Source of the DNA: a virus
Taxonomy: Duplodnaviria; Heunggongvirae; Uroviricota; Caudoviricetes
IMG/VR virus record: IMGVR_UViG_2537562172_000006
Direction: 5' to 3' (one strand)
DNA length: 64,000 bases
Position 1 is the first letter of the stretch. Each line of letters starts with the position of its first letter. This document shows, one piece after another, positions 1 to 6,000 of this stretch. A program made the position numbers.

Positions 1-3000
1 TGTGTCAGACTTTGATGCCATTACTACCGGATAAAGACGGGCCATTGAGTCGGGGCCAGCGTTCCAGGTGCGGCCGTTCCATTCGAACGTGAACGGCTGT
101 GCTTCCTGTTCTGTACGCCATGCCTCGATTTCCCGCTTTTTGGCATCCTTTGCTGCTGCGATAAGTTCAGGCGTGACGGTGAACGGGGCGATTTCACCCC
201 ATTTGCCGCTCTGTAACTCTTCCCAGATGCGCTGGCCTGTCGGGGCGCTATCGTCCTGCATGGCGGTATACGGGACGAATTCCGTTTCACCTTCAAATAA
301 CACCTCGCAGTCAACCGCACCATTTTCGAGATAATGGGCGTTTCTGATGCCTTTTACCGCTCTGATTTTCATGTCTTATTTCCCCGTTACTCGATGCGCA
401 CAAACAGACAAATGCGGCCTTCATCGCCATACGAATTACTGAATCCAGAAAGCGCCTGATAGCGACCGGGAAAGCTGAATGCCCCGGCACCTCCGGCAGA
501 AACGCGTGGGGTGGAAACATATGAGCCTGCATCATTAATTGAGCAGGTGATAGTTACCGGACCGAGTCGCGACCCCGGTACAATGTCACCCAGCCCAATT
601 TTGATTGCCTTATCGCCAGCCGCCGTTCCCTGATAGACCGCCAGAACAGGCACTCCCACTGCCGGGTATTTGTAATATGAGCCTGAGCCCGCCATCCTGG
701 ACAACAGGTACGCCAGTGAATCTCCGTCGCAAATGACGGGACTTACTGTTGCATTCCAGTTATTTCCACTCCAGCGGTAAGTCAGGCGATGAATACTGTG
801 CTCACCTTCGTAATACTGGTTGTAAAACACCGCCGTCTTGAATTTGCGTATTGCATCTGACTCGTCGTTATCAAAGGGGGACCACATCACATCAATGATG
901 CCGTTAAATTTCGTGGTGCCAGCCAGCAGCGTGGAAGAGTCCGCAATACTGACCGCATAACGCCCCGGCGTGGCCTCTTTCAGCCATTCAGCAAAATCGG
1001 CCTGTCCGTTAAATGCCCGAGCGTCGGTGCTGGCAAATGCCTGACCGAATCCATACATGCCGGACAGTGCCAGCCTGCCCGGTGTGCGGTCGCGGATATC
1101 GCTCTGGGGTTCCATCGTCGCAGCCGCTTTCAGCTCAAGCTCCGTGCGCATGGCCTCAGGCGTGTCCAGTGCCAGTAATGCGCGGGCTTTTTCTGACAGC
1201 TGCGCCAGTAAAATCCGGCCCTCTGCGCTGAAATAAGGCAGCGTGTTTTCTTCCGGTGTTATCTGGCTGACAGCCGTTAACACATCATTAAGCGGCTGTT
1301 TACCTGCCAGTGCGTTCGTGATTGTCGTCGCAAACTCCGGGTCATTGCCCAGCGCCGCTGCCAGCTCGTTCAGCGTGTCCAGGGCTTCCGGTGATGAGTC
1401 AACCAGCGCGGCAAGCAGTTTGCGGACAAACGCCGCATTGACTATTTCATTACCTGCTGCATCATCTGGTGGTGTTGGCGTGGACGGCGTTCCGGTCAGT
1501 GCCGGGCTGTTCAGTGGGGCGCGGGTTTCAATCAGTGCCCGGAGTGAAGCCTCGTTGACTTTCAGGTTTTCCCAGCCAACCAGATAACCATCTCCGGCAT
1601 TCCAGTAGCGATTGTAATAAATATGGCCGTTAATACCGTAAAAAATAATGATTTTGGGCACATATGCCGGATTGGGGTTGGCTTGAGGCTCCGGCCAGAT
1701 AATTTCAACGGTGCCGCTGAACAGGACCCCGGGAATCACTTTATCTGCGCCATAAACGACATAACGACCGGGTTTTGCCATTTTTACCCAGCGGAGAAAA
1801 TCGGCCTCTGTTTTAAATTCGGTCCTGTCGCCGCTGGAAAATACTTTCCCGAATCCAAACATGCCGGTAATCGCCAGACGGCCTTCGGCGCGGTCGTAAA
1901 TATTCTCCTGCGCATCCTTTTGTGCTGCATTGCCAAGTTGTGGCGTCAGATTAGTCCAGGTGACAGGGGCGGAGATATTATCGCCACGAACGGTCATAAG
2001 AATCCGTCCGTCTTTTCCAAAAAACAGAACCAGCTTTGTTGCTGTCTGGCTGGTTTTGTCGTCCCAGCCATTATCCAGCCAGATAATTTCTGTTATCCCG
2101 GTTGTTTCTTCCGTTTGTGTGGAAAAGGTGTAATACCGTCCCGGGTGCAGGTTATGCGCGCTTTTGGCTATGGTCGCCATATCGCGGGCAATAATTGAAC
2201 TTGCTCCGGCGTCCGTCATTCCGTAACCAAATGCACCAGGCAGCGCAACGCGGCCTTCCGAGCTGTCGTAAAGGTCTGTCTGAATGTCCCTTACCGCTGC
2301 GCTTTTCAGCTCAAGCTCATTGCGCATGGTTTCCACTGTGACCTGTGCCAGCAGTGACCGGGCTTTTTCTGACAGCGGAGACAGTGAAGCATTCCCGTCC
2401 TGATTAAAGCACAGAAGATTATCTGCCCGTTCTTCCAGATTACTGATTGCGGTTAACACGTCACTGAGTGGTTGTTTACCCGCCAGCGCGTTCATGATTG
2501 TTGTCGCAAACTCCGGGTCATTGCCCAGCGCCGCTGCCAGCTCGTTCAGCGTGTCCAGGGCTTCCGGTGACGAGTCAACCAGTGCGGCGAGCAGTTTGCG
2601 GACAAATGCCGCGTTCGCGGTTTCCAGACCGACTGCATCGTCCGGTGGGGTTGGTGTGGTTGGCGTGCCGGTGAACGCCGGGCTGTCCAGTGGCGCTTTT
2701 GTTTTCGTCTCGTCCATGACGGCTTTGACAGCCTTTGGTGTGGCTGCCAGTTCTTCGCTGTCGTTGTCTGTATCACTACAGAGTTGCACCAGACCTTTTT
2801 CTGTCGTGGAAGCATTGCTTCCCTTCAGGTCATCAACTATCCGTTGCGCCTCGTCCCTGTGCTGTTTCGCGCTCTGCTCGCTTTTGGCAGCCGCTTCGGC
2901 GCTGGCTTTTGCCTCGCCGGTCAGCGTTGCAGCTTCACCGAGTTTATCGACCGCTTTCTGGACTATCTTATCGGCATCTTTGACCGCCTGTTCTGCCCGG

Positions 3001-6000
3001 GCGGCATCCTGTGTGGCAGATGATGCCAGCTGTGCCACCTGCTTTTTATCTTCGGCAACGGATTCTGCATTCTGCTGTACGTTATCCGCCAGCGTCTCGC
3101 AGTCGCTCTTAATTTGTTGCGCATCAGCGACATGTTGCCCGGCCTGTCGTTCGCTTTCCGCTGCCGCTTCCGCGCTCTGCTGCGCCTGCGCCACCATTTC
3201 CTCAAAGCGTTTCACCACGTCGGGTTTGAGGTCGCCTTCATCAAGGGCAGTCAGAAAGTCGTTCAGCGTGCCGGGCCTGGAGTCGTCGTATACGGCAATG
3301 TCGCCAACACAGTACTCGTCGCGCCAGTCCTGTTTCAGATATACGCAGTATTTTCCGGTCTGCGCCTTAAAACAGTACTCGCCACAGTTTCCTGTCACCA
3401 CATCAGCAACTGTGCGCATCACCACTTCTGAGGTGTTTACCCGGGATTTCAGAATTATGTGGCATCCGGACATGGGGATGCCTGCGCCATCAATCAGCGC
3501 ACCTGATATCACTACAGACATAGTTTTTCTCGCAATAAATTAAATCAGGAAGAGGCTTCCGGAGAGACGGGCCATTCAATGGCGTTATATGAGCTTTTAT
3601 CAGCGATGGTGCTGAAATCCATCGCCTGCAGCGATTTCGCGTATATACGGTACGCTTTCAGTTTTTCCCTGTCTTCGTCGCTGATTAATCCCAGCAGCAG
3701 GTCTTTTTCCCATTCGCTGGTCATGATGCTGGCCCGTTGTAACAGGGCATCGCGCTCATCTTCCGCTTTAAGTTTGTAGTCGAAGACAAATTTATCGTCG
3801 CGGTAAAACCAGTAACCAGGCACGGTAATACGGCGGTTAGCGGTAATATCAGGAACTTCAATAACACTAGCGTTACGGGGTTCAATACCTGTCACATCCT
3901 TACCGACCCACACCACGCGCCCGTCTCCGGTGTAAACCATTTTTATGGTGTCACTGGCAAAATTTTTCAGCTCTTCATACCAGTTTCTGTCATCCTCCGA
4001 AAAAAGCCAGGTGATACCATGTTGTTTTGTCATCTGATATTGTTCTGCGGTTTTCGGATTGCCTGCAGTAATATTTTTTAAATGCAACATTGTTAAACAC
4101 TCGCCACGTTATACCAGGTGCCGTTAATCAGTTTCTGAAGCGGTCGGTAATACACGCCGCCGATGTTATCTGCCGAATTACTTCCGGTTTCCTGCACATT
4201 AATACCGGATAACCCGTGGCCTGAAGGTGAGCGAAATGTCCAGGATACTTGGTTACCTCCCGGGTTGTAATACATTTCGGAACCATAACGCACATCCTGC
4301 ACGCCGCCATTTCGCTGCTGATAACGGGCATCGAAATTTCCATAGTTTGATGGGGTCATCTGTCCGTTTACAGCGAATCTGATACTGCCATCGGTATTTC
4401 TCTGGCTGTAAAAATGCCAGCCGGAATCATCACCAAGCTCTGCAACTACAGGTCGGGATGAATTACCCCATAAATTAAACGTTGCGTTTTTCGTGGAGTT
4501 GTTGGCGCTGGATAACGTGAATTTTTTAGCATTTCCGGCCTGAATATTTTTTAACGCTATCGCCACACCATTCTGGAAACGAAATACATGCTGTCCATTC
4601 GCATAAACATCCAGAATGCCGTCGCCGTTTTGTTTTATACCTGTATCGTTATCCCCGAAAGCAATTGAGTTTCCGCCCAGCGCGTTCTGAACGCCGATAC
4701 CCAGCGCACCATTGACCTGAGAACCGCCGCCAACAGACACTTTATGCGACATGGATATTTCACCCGTCCGCAGATTAATAGTGAACGGTCGAAGTGGACC
4801 AATATCGCCATTCTCGCCCTGACCTTCACTGGTAGGGATAAGGTGCAGGCACTCTTCCGAACGACGAAAAATCAGACCAAAGGCTTCGTTGAAAATCCTC
4901 AGCGCATTAACACCACGGATTTTCAGTTCCCCGGTCATCAAATCACCAGATTTTTTTACATATCGCAGATCAAAATCTGAATAGATATTGCCGGGGTTTA
5001 TCACGCTGAAATAGCTTTTCTCGCTATCAAGAAGGCAAATCAAAGGAATACCCTTAATGATATCGTTCGCTACCAGCTCGGACTTGTTCCCCTTATAAAG
5101 CGGGAACGTACCAAGAACCTTTCCGCCCAGTGTTAATTGAAGTGTCGCGGCATTGGTATTGTTCTGAACGGGGAAAACGATAATCGGGGTTCGTAGCGTC
5201 CAGTCTGTACCTCCATTAACAAAAAACGTCGCGGGAAGCTCCAGAGTCAGCGCGTTTGCAGTGCCGCCAGCAACTCCCGCAATATAATGACCACTCTGAA
5301 GCTGCGCTATCTGTACGAAATGGTTTTCCGAACCACGCGTGGCAAAGTTAGCCACAACGTCATTAAGGGACCAACCTTTCGCGGTTGTTCCTTCCTGCCC
5401 ACGAATGACTTTCAACACATCACCGCTTACCGATACCAGGTGACAAATCTCAAATGCAGACTCTTTATTATCGGTAAGCGTAATTTTTGCATAGACACGT
5501 TGCCCGTTCGATTTATTTTCAAAATCGGCAGAAAGCAATTTTGCAAATTTAGCCCCTGTACCGGGCATTACCGGAATATCAGTCTGAATCTTGGTGATGC
5601 TGCCAACTTACTGATTTAGTGTATGATGGTGTTTTTGAGGTGCTCCAGTGGCTTCTGTTTCTATCAGCTGTCCCTCCTGTTCAGCTACTGACGGGGTGGT
5701 GCGTAACGGCAAAAGCACCGCCGGACATCAGCGCTATCTCTGCTCTCACTGCCGTAAAACATGGCAACTACAGTTCACTTACGCCGCCTCTCAGCCCGGT
5801 ACGCACCAGAAAATCATTGATATGGCCATGAATGGCGTCGGATGTCGCGCCAGTGCACGCATTATTGGCGTTGGCCTCAACACGATTTTCCGCCACTTAA
5901 AAAACTCAGGCCGCAGTCGGTAACCTCGCGCATACAACCGGGCAGTGATGTGATTGTCTGCGCTGAAATGGACGAACAGTGGGGCTACGTCGGTGCTAAA

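What the first reader, a model, noticed from the sequence alone, without database searches (positions are those of the whole stretch)
387..3521. Mosaic Stf-like fibre with duplicated shaft unit and three tip-like modules
Within one ORF a shaft unit of about 85 aa occurs twice (DNA direct repeats near 1272-1530 and 2451-2710, about 90 percent identical), and three modules with GxxGxG...PGRY signatures follow one another. Such internal repeats favour recombinational expansion or contraction and may give multivalent receptor binding.
Basis: seen in the sequence. Interest (0 to 1): 0.45.

Follow-up and report, generated by a model that had tools for sequence, protein, structure and literature searches.

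The report
Modular prophage tail fibre, repeated joint
This is an intact E. coli prophage tail-fibre gene built from swappable blocks (a widely shared "joint" used twice and three related knob-like domains); that is an ordinary way for phage fibres to evolve, although this block family has no solved structure or Pfam model.

Summary
Window 387-3521 (minus strand) is one 1044-aa ORF. Its N-terminus is Stf-type (PF08400). An internal unit occurs twice: DNA 1267-1520 and 2443-2696 are 85% identical, with a 68-bp perfect core, 1176 bp apart and in frame. The protein copies S1 (aa 274-408) and S2 (aa 666-800) are 73% identical. Three paralogous ~125-aa modules A, B and C carry the GxFGxG...PGxY signature.

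The order is N, coiled coil, S1, A, B, S2, C, then a distal domain Ct. A DUF4376 chaperone gene follows. This is not a recent duplication: eight diverged alleles share the layout, and S1 and S2 form separate clades. All modules show dN/dS below 0.5.

Two natural long/short pairs (this type and SC418; Rac-SA53 and phage pPE4) differ by one period. Their crossover lies in the conserved S core, which supports recombinational gain or loss.

The parts
387..3521 (-). Complete tail-fibre gene, 1044 aa plus stop codon. The protein is identical to WP_000117757.1 / EGX18546.1.
   Evidence: ORF list. Exact look-up finds it in a cluster of 97 members. PHROG tail-fibre families match at E down to 1e-291.
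3117..3521 (-). N: N-terminal attachment domain, aa 1-135.
   Evidence: Pfam PF08400 phage_tail_N, E = 9.9e-62. Residues 1-93 match PDB chain 9e7m, E = 1.3e-16.
2703..3116 (-). CC: Ala/Gln/Glu-rich stretch, probably coiled coil, aa 136-273. It ends in the PF03406 tail-fibre repeat (aa 238-277).
   Evidence: PF03406, E = 1.3e-15. The length of this part varies between alleles: about 105 aa longer in CEA224S and C311.
2298..2702 (-). S1: first copy of the conserved fibre joint, aa 274-408. It contains the motif AALVDSSPEALDTLNELAAALGNDPEFATT.
   Evidence: Repeat family D1. 73% aa identity to S2. S1 copies are 93-98% nt identical among the seven long alleles compared.
1902..2291 (-). A: first knob-like module, aa 411-540.
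   Evidence: Paralogous to B and C. The AF2 element order is strand, helix, then four strands. dN/dS is 0.03-0.36.
1527..1901 (-). B: second knob-like module, aa 541-665. It ends in GWENLK, the point where related fibres continue either into an S unit or into a Ct domain.
1122..1526 (-). S2: second copy of the joint, aa 666-800.
   Evidence: S2 copies are 74-97% identical among alleles and only 69-80% identical to S1 copies.
732..1121 (-). C: third knob-like module, aa 801-930.
   Evidence: 38% identical to B, E = 2e-20. The AF2 model has a helix and six strands.
390..731 (-). Ct: distal beta-rich domain, aa 931-1044, ending ...CLFVRIE. This is the terminal element in every complete relative that carries a Ct-type end.
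   Evidence: Alignment A1 shows the conserved C-terminal G-L-F-x-R. pLDDT is 74-89 and the domain is all-beta. It is always last in the architectures.
1327..1394 (.). 68-bp stretch in S2 that is identical to 2503-2570 in S1. It is the likely crossover site.
   Evidence: Other long alleles share only 17-26 bp of exact S1/S2 identity.
2503..2570 (.). The partner 68-bp identical stretch in S1, 1176 bp (392 codons) from the S2 copy.
1..372 (-). 5' part (124 codons) of the DUF4376 gene, the putative fibre chaperone. It runs off the start of the window.
   Evidence: Translation matches the 195-aa P13-6 protein. Pfam PF14301: E = 3e-5 for the fragment and 1.3e-17 for the full-length protein.
3545..4090 (-). 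Tfa-type assembly protein (181 aa). It belongs with the upstream fibre 1, not with this gene.
   Evidence: PF02413, E = 2.8e-23. The same gene order is seen in all related loci.
4093..5568 (-). Fibre 1 (491-aa ORF). It is truncated at its 5' end by IS1.
   Evidence: PHROG tail-fibre hits. Collinearity with E. coli W breaks about 60 nt into the W gene.

Best explanation
**What it is.** The gene encodes an intact, presumably trimeric, second tail fibre of a baseplate-bearing E. coli prophage. The protein is a string of exchangeable blocks:
1. An Stf-type N-terminal attachment domain.
2. A coiled coil.
3. A conserved joint, S1.
4. Two knob-like domains, A and B.
5. The same joint again, S2.
6. 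A third knob, C.
7. A distal beta domain, Ct.

**How it most likely works.**
- Ct is probably folded with the help of the DUF4376 protein encoded immediately downstream.
- The distal C-Ct pair most likely sets the primary receptor specificity (inferred).
- The inserted A-B-S block lengthens the fibre by about 390 residues. It adds two knobs that may make secondary, low-affinity contacts with surface saccharides, as proposed for R-pyocin Knob2 (inferred).
- The joint is a sequence shared by very many phage fibres. It serves as the homologous-recombination site at which blocks are gained, lost and swapped. In this allele S1 and S2 share a 68-bp perfect match in frame, so a single crossover would give a functional 652-aa short fibre.

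**Shown and inferred.** Shown: the repeats, the paralogy, the conserved layout, purifying selection, and natural long/short pairs with breakpoints in the core. Inferred: the knob fold, trimer formation, the chaperone role, and which module binds what.
For: **Repeat and modules**
- The repeat and the paralogous modules are real.

**Conserved layout and mosaicism**
- The layout N-CC-S1-A-B-S2-C-Ct is conserved in eight alleles from at least four integration sites and three prophage backbones, including a Mu-like one.
- Among the seven of those alleles compared, S1 copies are 93-98% identical, S2 copies 74-97%, and S1 versus S2 only 69-80%. There is no concerted evolution.
- Every module has dN/dS of 0.03-0.49. 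dS is very uneven, for example 0.13 for A against 1.02 for C in window versus A36.

**Length variants**
- SC418 (654 aa) and pPE4 (667 aa) have chimeric S units. The 5' part is S1-like and the 3' part S2-like, with the switch in the conserved core.
- Further variants with the same C-Ct tip are 757/759 aa and 854 aa long.

**Modules are shaft elements**
- The same module type sits internally in B-S-B-S-B fibres, before an unrelated tip (P0042), and before a tip ending FNYIVRLA (P0150), which from memory is the lambda Stf / Rac StfR ending.
- Minimal fibres consist of N-CC-B-Ct or PF12571-B-Ct.

**Fold**
- A, B and C share the element order strand, helix, then 4-5 strands.
- Those are the same proteins, and largely the same PDB entries, that Buth et al. 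list as knob domains (PMC6116203).
- Foldseek gives phi812 RBP at probability 0.99 and R1 pyocin 6cl5 at E = 1.7e-3.

**Chaperone and joint**
- DUF4376 lies downstream in all 12 loci.
- DUF4376 proteins are the fibre chaperones of Alteromonas A5/V22, whose fibres also show knob duplication (PMC10579305).
- The S core occurs in 671 phage records.
Against: - No sequence-level link to any solved structure or Pfam family exists for aa 410-1044.
- Chaperone identity tracks Ct identity only loosely (r = 0.66, driven by one outlier).
- No near-identical (>=99%) short derivative of this allele exists among 5,426 complete E. coli genomes. Recombination between S1 and S2 is therefore rare on the population scale, and the direction of change (deletion or insertion) cannot be told.
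- Fibre 1 of this prophage is interrupted by IS1. The prophage may be defective, and the fibre may no longer be in use in this strain.
Confidence: 0.7

Rival explanations
1. A, B and C are three independent receptor-binding tips, so one fibre recognises several receptors, or the same receptor multivalently, along its length.
For: - B and C are among the most swapped modules between alleles: B is 66-94% and C 38-92% aa identical, while A is 85-99% and S1 96-99%.
- In R-type pyocins Knob2 is more diverse than the terminal lectin domain, and both are proposed to bind the cell surface about 100 A apart (PMC6116203).
- The module also occurs next to the end of minimal fibres.
Against: - In no complete fibre examined that keeps the Ct-type ending is the module itself the last domain; a Ct domain follows it.
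- The module type is also found upstream of unrelated tips (P0042, P0150).
- A is highly conserved.
- No module-level sign of positive selection was found; dN/dS is at most 0.49.
- No ligand site could be identified, and there is only one chaperone gene.
Confidence: 0.2
2. The A-B-S block is purely architectural. It works as a length and stiffness adaptor that lets the distal C-Ct head reach its receptor through a thicker O-antigen or capsule layer, and it has no binding role.
For: - The same C-Ct tip plus DUF4376 cassette is carried on shafts of 654, 757-759, 854 and 1037-1047 aa.
- The coiled-coil length also varies.
- Buth et al. note that repeat-built fibres allow length adjustment and that knob-like domains probably aid trimer folding.
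Against: B is exchanged between alleles as often as the tip modules are. That is unexpected for a neutral spacer. A purely structural role does not explain why three distinct B types are retained.
Confidence: 0.3
3. The repeat is an artefact or a sign of decay: either a mis-assembly across repeated fibre sequence, or a fused or dead fibre gene in a defective prophage.
For: - IS1 interrupts the neighbouring fibre-1 gene.
- Many database relatives are contig-end fragments. This shows that these repeats do break short-read assemblies.
Against: - The identical layout occurs in 21 complete genomes, including E. coli W and several ETEC strains, and in the phage record Rac-SA53.
- The ORF is uninterrupted, and all modules are under purifying selection.
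Confidence: 0.02

Closest known systems
Escherichia phage Rac-SA53 'tail3' (KU052037, 1061 aa) and the E. coli W prophage fibre WP_000117760.1
   Same: Both have the same N-CC-S1-A-B-S2-knob-Ct layout, the same DUF4376 gene downstream and the same fibre-1 plus Tfa genes upstream. Both also have the same kind of prophage backbone as this window.
   Different: Rac-SA53 carries a different distal pair: C' is 38% and Ct' 30% identical. W is 93% identical at the DNA level and has only 26 bp of exact S1/S2 identity, against 68 bp here.
Alteromonas phage A5 gp8 / V22 gp26 tail fibres with DUF4376 chaperones (PMC10579305)
   Same: The layout is shoulder, stem, neck, knob(s), distal head. The knob number differs between relatives through an insertion bounded by conserved flanking sequences. 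A DUF4376 chaperone is encoded directly downstream.
   Different: - No detectable sequence similarity was seen here.
- Those fibres are 369-462 aa long with one or two knobs and no repeated joint.
- Here there are three knobs, and a 135-aa joint is repeated.
R1/R2 pyocin fibres (PDB 6CL5, 6CL6; PMC6116203)
   Different: - The N-terminal attachment domain differs.
- An HxH-type iron site was not looked for here.
- Per Buth et al., the pyocin knobs are joined by a short helix-plus-turn motif; I saw no repeated joint comparable to S there.
- Similarity is at the fold level only and is weak.
Lambda Stf / Rac StfR side tail fibres
   Same: They share the PF08400 N-terminal domain (E = 1e-61), the Ala-rich coiled coil, the PF03406 repeat and the ...LDTLNELAAALGNDP... 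joint.
   Different: Here the chaperone is DUF4376, not Tfa (PF02413). The joint occurs twice. The host phage has a Baseplate_J protein. From memory, the lambda-type distal region is a different sequence type.
Classical mosaic tail-fibre genes (P2 H, P1/P7 S, Mu S; Haggard-Ljungquist 1992, Sandmeier 1992/1994). Cited from my own knowledge; the papers were not read here.
   Same: Fibre genes are assembled from blocks shared between unrelated phages, with conserved segments acting as recombination joints. The constant part of P7 S carries the S unit.
   Different: Those phages switch their tips with invertases. No inverted repeats were found here, and no invertase gene is annotated next to the fibre genes in related loci.

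Membership tests
Lambda-type side tail fibre (Stf/StfR) | N-terminal 'prophage tail fibre N-terminal' domain (PF08400) | tested here: met
   PF08400 covers aa 1-134 at E = 9.9e-62. Residues 1-93 match PDB 9e7m at E = 1.3e-16.
Lambda-type side tail fibre (Stf/StfR) | PF03406 fibre repeat and the conserved ...LDTLNELAAALGNDP... segment before the variable distal part | tested here: met
   PF03406, E = 1.3e-15. The S unit occurs in 671 phage records, 73 of them from Escherichia phages. Here it is present twice.
Lambda-type side tail fibre (Stf/StfR) | Cognate Tfa-type (PF02413) assembly protein encoded immediately downstream | tested here: not met
   The downstream gene is DUF4376 / PF14301. The PF02413 gene lies upstream and follows fibre 1.
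Lambda-type side tail fibre (Stf/StfR) | Lambda-type C-terminal receptor-binding region | not tested
   No direct comparison with lambda Stf was run. The protein ends ...CLFVRIE. A relative, P0150, ends ...FNYIVRLA, which I recognise from memory as the StfR ending.
Knob-and-head fibres with DUF4376 chaperone (Alteromonas A5/V22 type; R-pyocin-like knobs) | Knob fold: a 5-6-stranded antiparallel sheet with a helix-bearing loop | tested here: inconclusive
Knob-and-head fibres with DUF4376 chaperone (Alteromonas A5/V22 type; R-pyocin-like knobs) | Paralogous knobs in series, with a number that varies between relatives | tested here: met
   A, B and C are paralogous. Relatives carry 1, 2 or 3 modules.
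Knob-and-head fibres with DUF4376 chaperone (Alteromonas A5/V22 type; R-pyocin-like knobs) | Distal lectin-like beta-sandwich head | tested here: inconclusive
Knob-and-head fibres with DUF4376 chaperone (Alteromonas A5/V22 type; R-pyocin-like knobs) | DUF4376 gene directly downstream of the fibre gene | tested here: met
   PF14301 at E = 1.3e-17 in the P13-6 orthologue and 3e-5 in the window fragment. It is present in all 12 loci inspected.
Knob-and-head fibres with DUF4376 chaperone (Alteromonas A5/V22 type; R-pyocin-like knobs) | Homotrimer with a chaperone cap | not testable with these tools
Programmed fibre-switching systems (Gin/Cin/Min invertase cassettes) | Inverted recombination sites flanking alternative C-terminal segments, plus an invertase gene | tested here: not met
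   No inverted repeats of 20 nt or more in window 1-5000. No invertase is annotated next to the fibre genes in related loci.

The most novel reading that the evidence does not exclude
In this allele lineage the 68-bp perfect, in-frame S1/S2 repeat would act as a recombinational length switch. Lysogen populations would continually produce both a 1044-aa three-knob fibre and a 652-aa one-knob fibre. The internal knobs A and B would carry their own glycan-binding sites, so the two forms would differ in host range. That would be an invertase-free, RecA- or phage-recombinase-driven way of varying host range.
Probability: 0.1. Interest if true: 0.5.

Novelty: new member of a known kind. Interest (0 to 1): 0.25.

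Why it matters
**Engineering use.** The analysis gives a clean, well-delimited natural example of how fibre length and knob number change by recombination at a conserved joint. The block boundaries (S core, GWENLK) could serve as splice points for engineered fibres.

**Gap in structural coverage.** The knob-like module family is small. Only 101 of 1.84 billion representative proteins match it. It lacks a Pfam model and a solved structure, yet it is used by both temperate and virulent coliphages, including Goslar and Av-05.

**Limits.** It does not open a new question. Mosaic fibres, knob duplication and DUF4376 chaperones are all already described.

Tried and rejected
- **Whole-protein self-blastp** reported only the identity hit, so I split the protein into segments.
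- **Sequence searches of aa 410-1044** against Pfam and PDB, with the single sequence and with a 20-sequence module profile, found nothing meaningful.
- **Covariation of the DUF4376 protein with Ct** was only r = 0.66 and was driven by the Rac-SA53 outlier. It does not discriminate between models.
- **The search for homologous proteins** returned only proteins of 469 aa or less, many of them contig-end fragments. Full-length relatives had to come from the genome searches and the representative search.
- **Recent tandem duplication with concerted evolution:** rejected, because S1 and S2 form separate clades across alleles.
- **Invertase-type switching:** rejected, because there are no inverted repeats.
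- **Assembly artefact or pseudogene:** rejected.
- **Search for a synthetic deletion junction in public collections:** not attempted. Exact-match scans would only find derivatives of this exact allele, and one search already showed no >=99% short form among complete E. coli genomes.
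Full report
**1. Observation**

The region holds one ORF on the minus strand, 387..3521, encoding 1044 aa. The repeat finder reports a direct repeat of 254 nt at 1267-1520 and 2443-2696. It is 85% identical without gaps and the spacing is 1176 nt. Gapped blastn extends it to about 393 nt at 78% identity, E = 4e-89.

The longest perfect match is 68 bp (1327-1394 = 2503-2570). In 200 shuffles of the gene the maximum was 13 bp.

At the protein level the repeated unit is 135 aa. S1 (aa 274-408) and S2 (aa 666-800) are 73% identical, E = 1e-55. The unit is not low-complexity sequence.

Three further segments are paralogues: A (411-540), B (541-665) and C (801-930). A-B gives E = 7e-10, A-C 8e-8 and B-C 2e-20. 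An alignment of 20 such modules has invariant D, A, G, G, G, P, G, Y and G positions. That is the GxFGxG...PGxY signature.

A and B are adjacent. C follows S2. A fourth PGRY lies in the last 114 residues (Ct), which are not a module of this kind.

**2. What the gene is**

- Pfam finds PF08400 (prophage tail fibre N-terminal) at aa 1-134 with E = 1e-61, and PF03406 at aa 238-277. It finds nothing for aa 410-1044.
- PHROGs gives tail-fibre families only.
- The N-terminal 93 residues match PDB chain 9e7m, 'Tail fiber protein'.
- The exact protein is already in NCBI as WP_000117757.1 / EGX18546.1, named 'prophage tail fiber N-terminal domain-containing protein'. Its 90% cluster has 97 members.

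On the minus strand the gene order is as follows:
1. IS1.
2. Fibre 1 (491-aa ORF).
3. A PF02413 Tfa gene.
4. This gene.
5. A gene whose first 124 codons lie at 372..1 and which is DUF4376 / PF14301.

Further upstream are Baseplate_J, portal and small-terminase genes. The backbone is collinear with the E. coli W and Rac-SA53 prophages at about 95-97% identity.

**3. Comparative anatomy**

The full-length gene is found in 21 of 5,426 complete E. coli genomes. Four are at 99.3-99.9% identity, including P13-6. E. coli W and its derivatives are at 93.3%.

Eight alleles share the order N-CC-S1-A-B-S2-knob-Ct: window, P13-6, W, CFIAFB20180511, A36, 52F4, ETEC1732 and Rac-SA53. They sit at several integration sites: next to uspF/ompN, in ompW, next to yecD, and next to a tRNA-Ser gene. 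In ETEC1732 the gene lies in a Mu-like prophage inserted in flhA, and its N domain is only 40% identical.

Identity to the window varies module by module: A 85-99%, B 66-94%, S2 75-95%, C 38-92% and Ct 30-98%.

Pairwise dN/dS is 0.03-0.49 for every module. dS differs up to 8-fold between modules of the same allele pair, for example A 0.13, B 0.70 and C 1.02 in window versus A36. The modules are therefore functional coding sequence that is exchanged by recombination.

**4. Nature of the duplication**

Among the seven long alleles compared (P13-6 was left out because it is near-identical to the window), S1 copies are 93-98% identical at the nucleotide level, S2 copies 74-97%, and S1 versus S2 only 69-80%. 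The two copies are thus old, orthologous positions. They are not a recent in-situ duplication and they are not homogenised.

The exception is the core. In this allele lineage S1 and S2 share 68 bp of perfect identity. The other long alleles share only 17-26 bp. In all alleles the spacing is a multiple of three (1176, 1179 or 1182 nt).

**5. Length variants**

- SC418 carries a 654-aa fibre (N-CC-S-C-Ct). Its single S unit is S1-like in the first 90 nt or so (90-97% to S1, against 67-80% to S2). It is indistinguishable through the conserved core, and S2-like afterwards (90-100% to S2 against 33-81% to S1, the contrast being sharpest over the segment at offset 270-330).
- Independently, phage vB_Apl-pPE4 carries a 667-aa fibre that is the one-period-shorter form of Rac-SA53's 1061-aa fibre. 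That fibre has a different distal pair. The switch again lies in the S core.
- The same C-Ct tip also occurs on 757/759-aa fibres with a longer coiled coil (CEA224S, C311) and on an 854-aa fibre, N-CC-B-S2-C-Ct (A36, second locus).

This is direct comparative support for gain or loss of the [S-A-B] period by homologous recombination at the joint. The direction cannot be inferred.

No short derivative at 99% identity or more to this allele exists among the complete genomes. Nothing therefore suggests frequent switching.

**6. What the modules are**

A search with A+B found many fibres in which a single B-type module is followed by a Ct-type domain ending G-L-F-x-R-x-A. These have either a PF08400 N-terminus (about 440-470 aa) or a P2 gpH-type PF12571 N-terminus (about 404-408 aa).

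After the conserved GWENLK at the end of a B-type module, the chain continues in one of two ways. It goes either into 'VNEASLRALIETRAPL...' (a new S unit) or into Ct.

A profile of the module, scored against 1.84 billion representatives, matches only 101 proteins at E of 1e-3 or better. Three have three modules and about fourteen have two. Their layouts include the following:
- B-S-B-S-B (P0122).
- N-A-B-Ct (P0128).
- N-B-B-Ct (P0134).
- B-S followed by an unrelated tip (P0042).
- B-S followed by a tip ending FNYIVRLA (P0150).

The module is therefore a shaft element that can be internal. Ct is the terminal element.

The module is also present in virulent coliphages, including Goslar and Av-05. 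The S core occurs in 671 phage records, including the constant part of P7 S and many actinophages.

**7. Structure**

- AF2 on C+Ct gave pLDDT 71.8. AF2 on A+B gave 67.5, with B at 80-90.
- A, B and C share the element order strand, helix, then four to five strands. Ct is all-beta.
- Foldseek gives phi812 RBP at E = 7.5e-4 (probability 0.99) and R1 pyocin fibre at 1.7e-3.
- Buth et al. describe knob domains as 5-6-stranded antiparallel sheets with a helix-bearing loop. They list the pyocin, phi11, phage K gp144 and T4 gp34 proteins as the knob family (PMC6116203).

**8. Closest published analogue**

The closest analogue is the Alteromonas phage A5/V22 fibre pair. Their layout is shoulder, stem, neck, knob(s), head. 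An insertion bounded by conserved flanks duplicates the knob, and a DUF4376 chaperone is encoded downstream and proposed to cap the fibre tip (PMC10579305).

In R-type pyocins, sequence diversity maps to Knob2 and to the C-terminal lectin domain. Both are proposed to contact the cell surface. A secondary binding role for internal knobs here is therefore plausible but untested.

**9. Verdict**

The 'mosaic Stf-like fibre' reading and the recombination idea are supported. 'Three tip-like modules giving multivalent binding' is not shown, and the modules are better described as knob-type shaft domains.

The feature is a new, well-delimited member of a known kind: mosaic, knob-bearing tail fibres with DUF4376 chaperones. 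It is only Stf-like at its N-terminal end, because its chaperone is not Tfa. Interest is low to moderate.

Noticed in passing
window 5593-6360 (IS1) and 4093-5568 (fibre 1): A 768-bp IS1 with an 8-9 bp target duplication (TGAATCTT) sits about 60 nt inside the fibre-1 gene, as judged against E. coli W. It separates the original start codon from the rest of the gene. Fibre 1 is probably inactivated and the prophage may be defective. The IS1 identity rests on the InsA/InsB ORFs and the terminal repeats, which I recognised from memory.
   Followed up: partly
window 2-3868, compared with L001 (P13-6) and L004 (E. coli W): The Stf plus DUF4376 cassette is 98.8-99.9% identical to that of the pig strain P13-6 (O141:H4), whose prophage has a different, P2-like tail module with sheath, tube and gpV/gpI genes. 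The rest of the window's tail region is W / Rac-SA53-like at about 95%. The cassette has evidently moved between prophage backbones recently.
   Followed up: partly
database relatives (P0002, P0003, P0215 and others; UMNF18 hit H22): Many entries of this fibre family are named 'shikimate transporter' in NCBI records. This looks like a propagated annotation error.
   Followed up: no
L012 (PP818812.1, 'Actinobacillus phage vB_Apl-pPE4'): The fibre locus of this phage is 92-95% identical at the DNA level to the E. coli Rac-SA53 fibre gene. It has the same baseplate J, fibre 1, Tfa, Stf and DUF4376 gene order. The stated Actinobacillus host looks doubtful, or else implies cross-genus spread.
   Followed up: partly
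hits: A large share of homologues are partial proteins on contigs of about 1 kb. This suggests that the repeated S units and shared modules routinely break short-read assemblies of these fibre genes.
   Followed up: no
S core, window 1327-1394 and 2503-2570: The ...AALVDSSPEALDTLNELAAALGNDP... segment is found by tblastn in 671 phage records. Among them are 364 Mycobacterium and 66 Gordonia phages, where it lies in minor tail proteins. This is an unusually wide spread for a 45-aa fibre motif.
   Followed up: no
L006 and L010 (E. coli A36); L007 (52F4): Single genomes carry two or more different members of this fibre family in different prophages, for example 1047-aa and 854-aa forms in A36. 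They supply resident partners for recombination.
   Followed up: no
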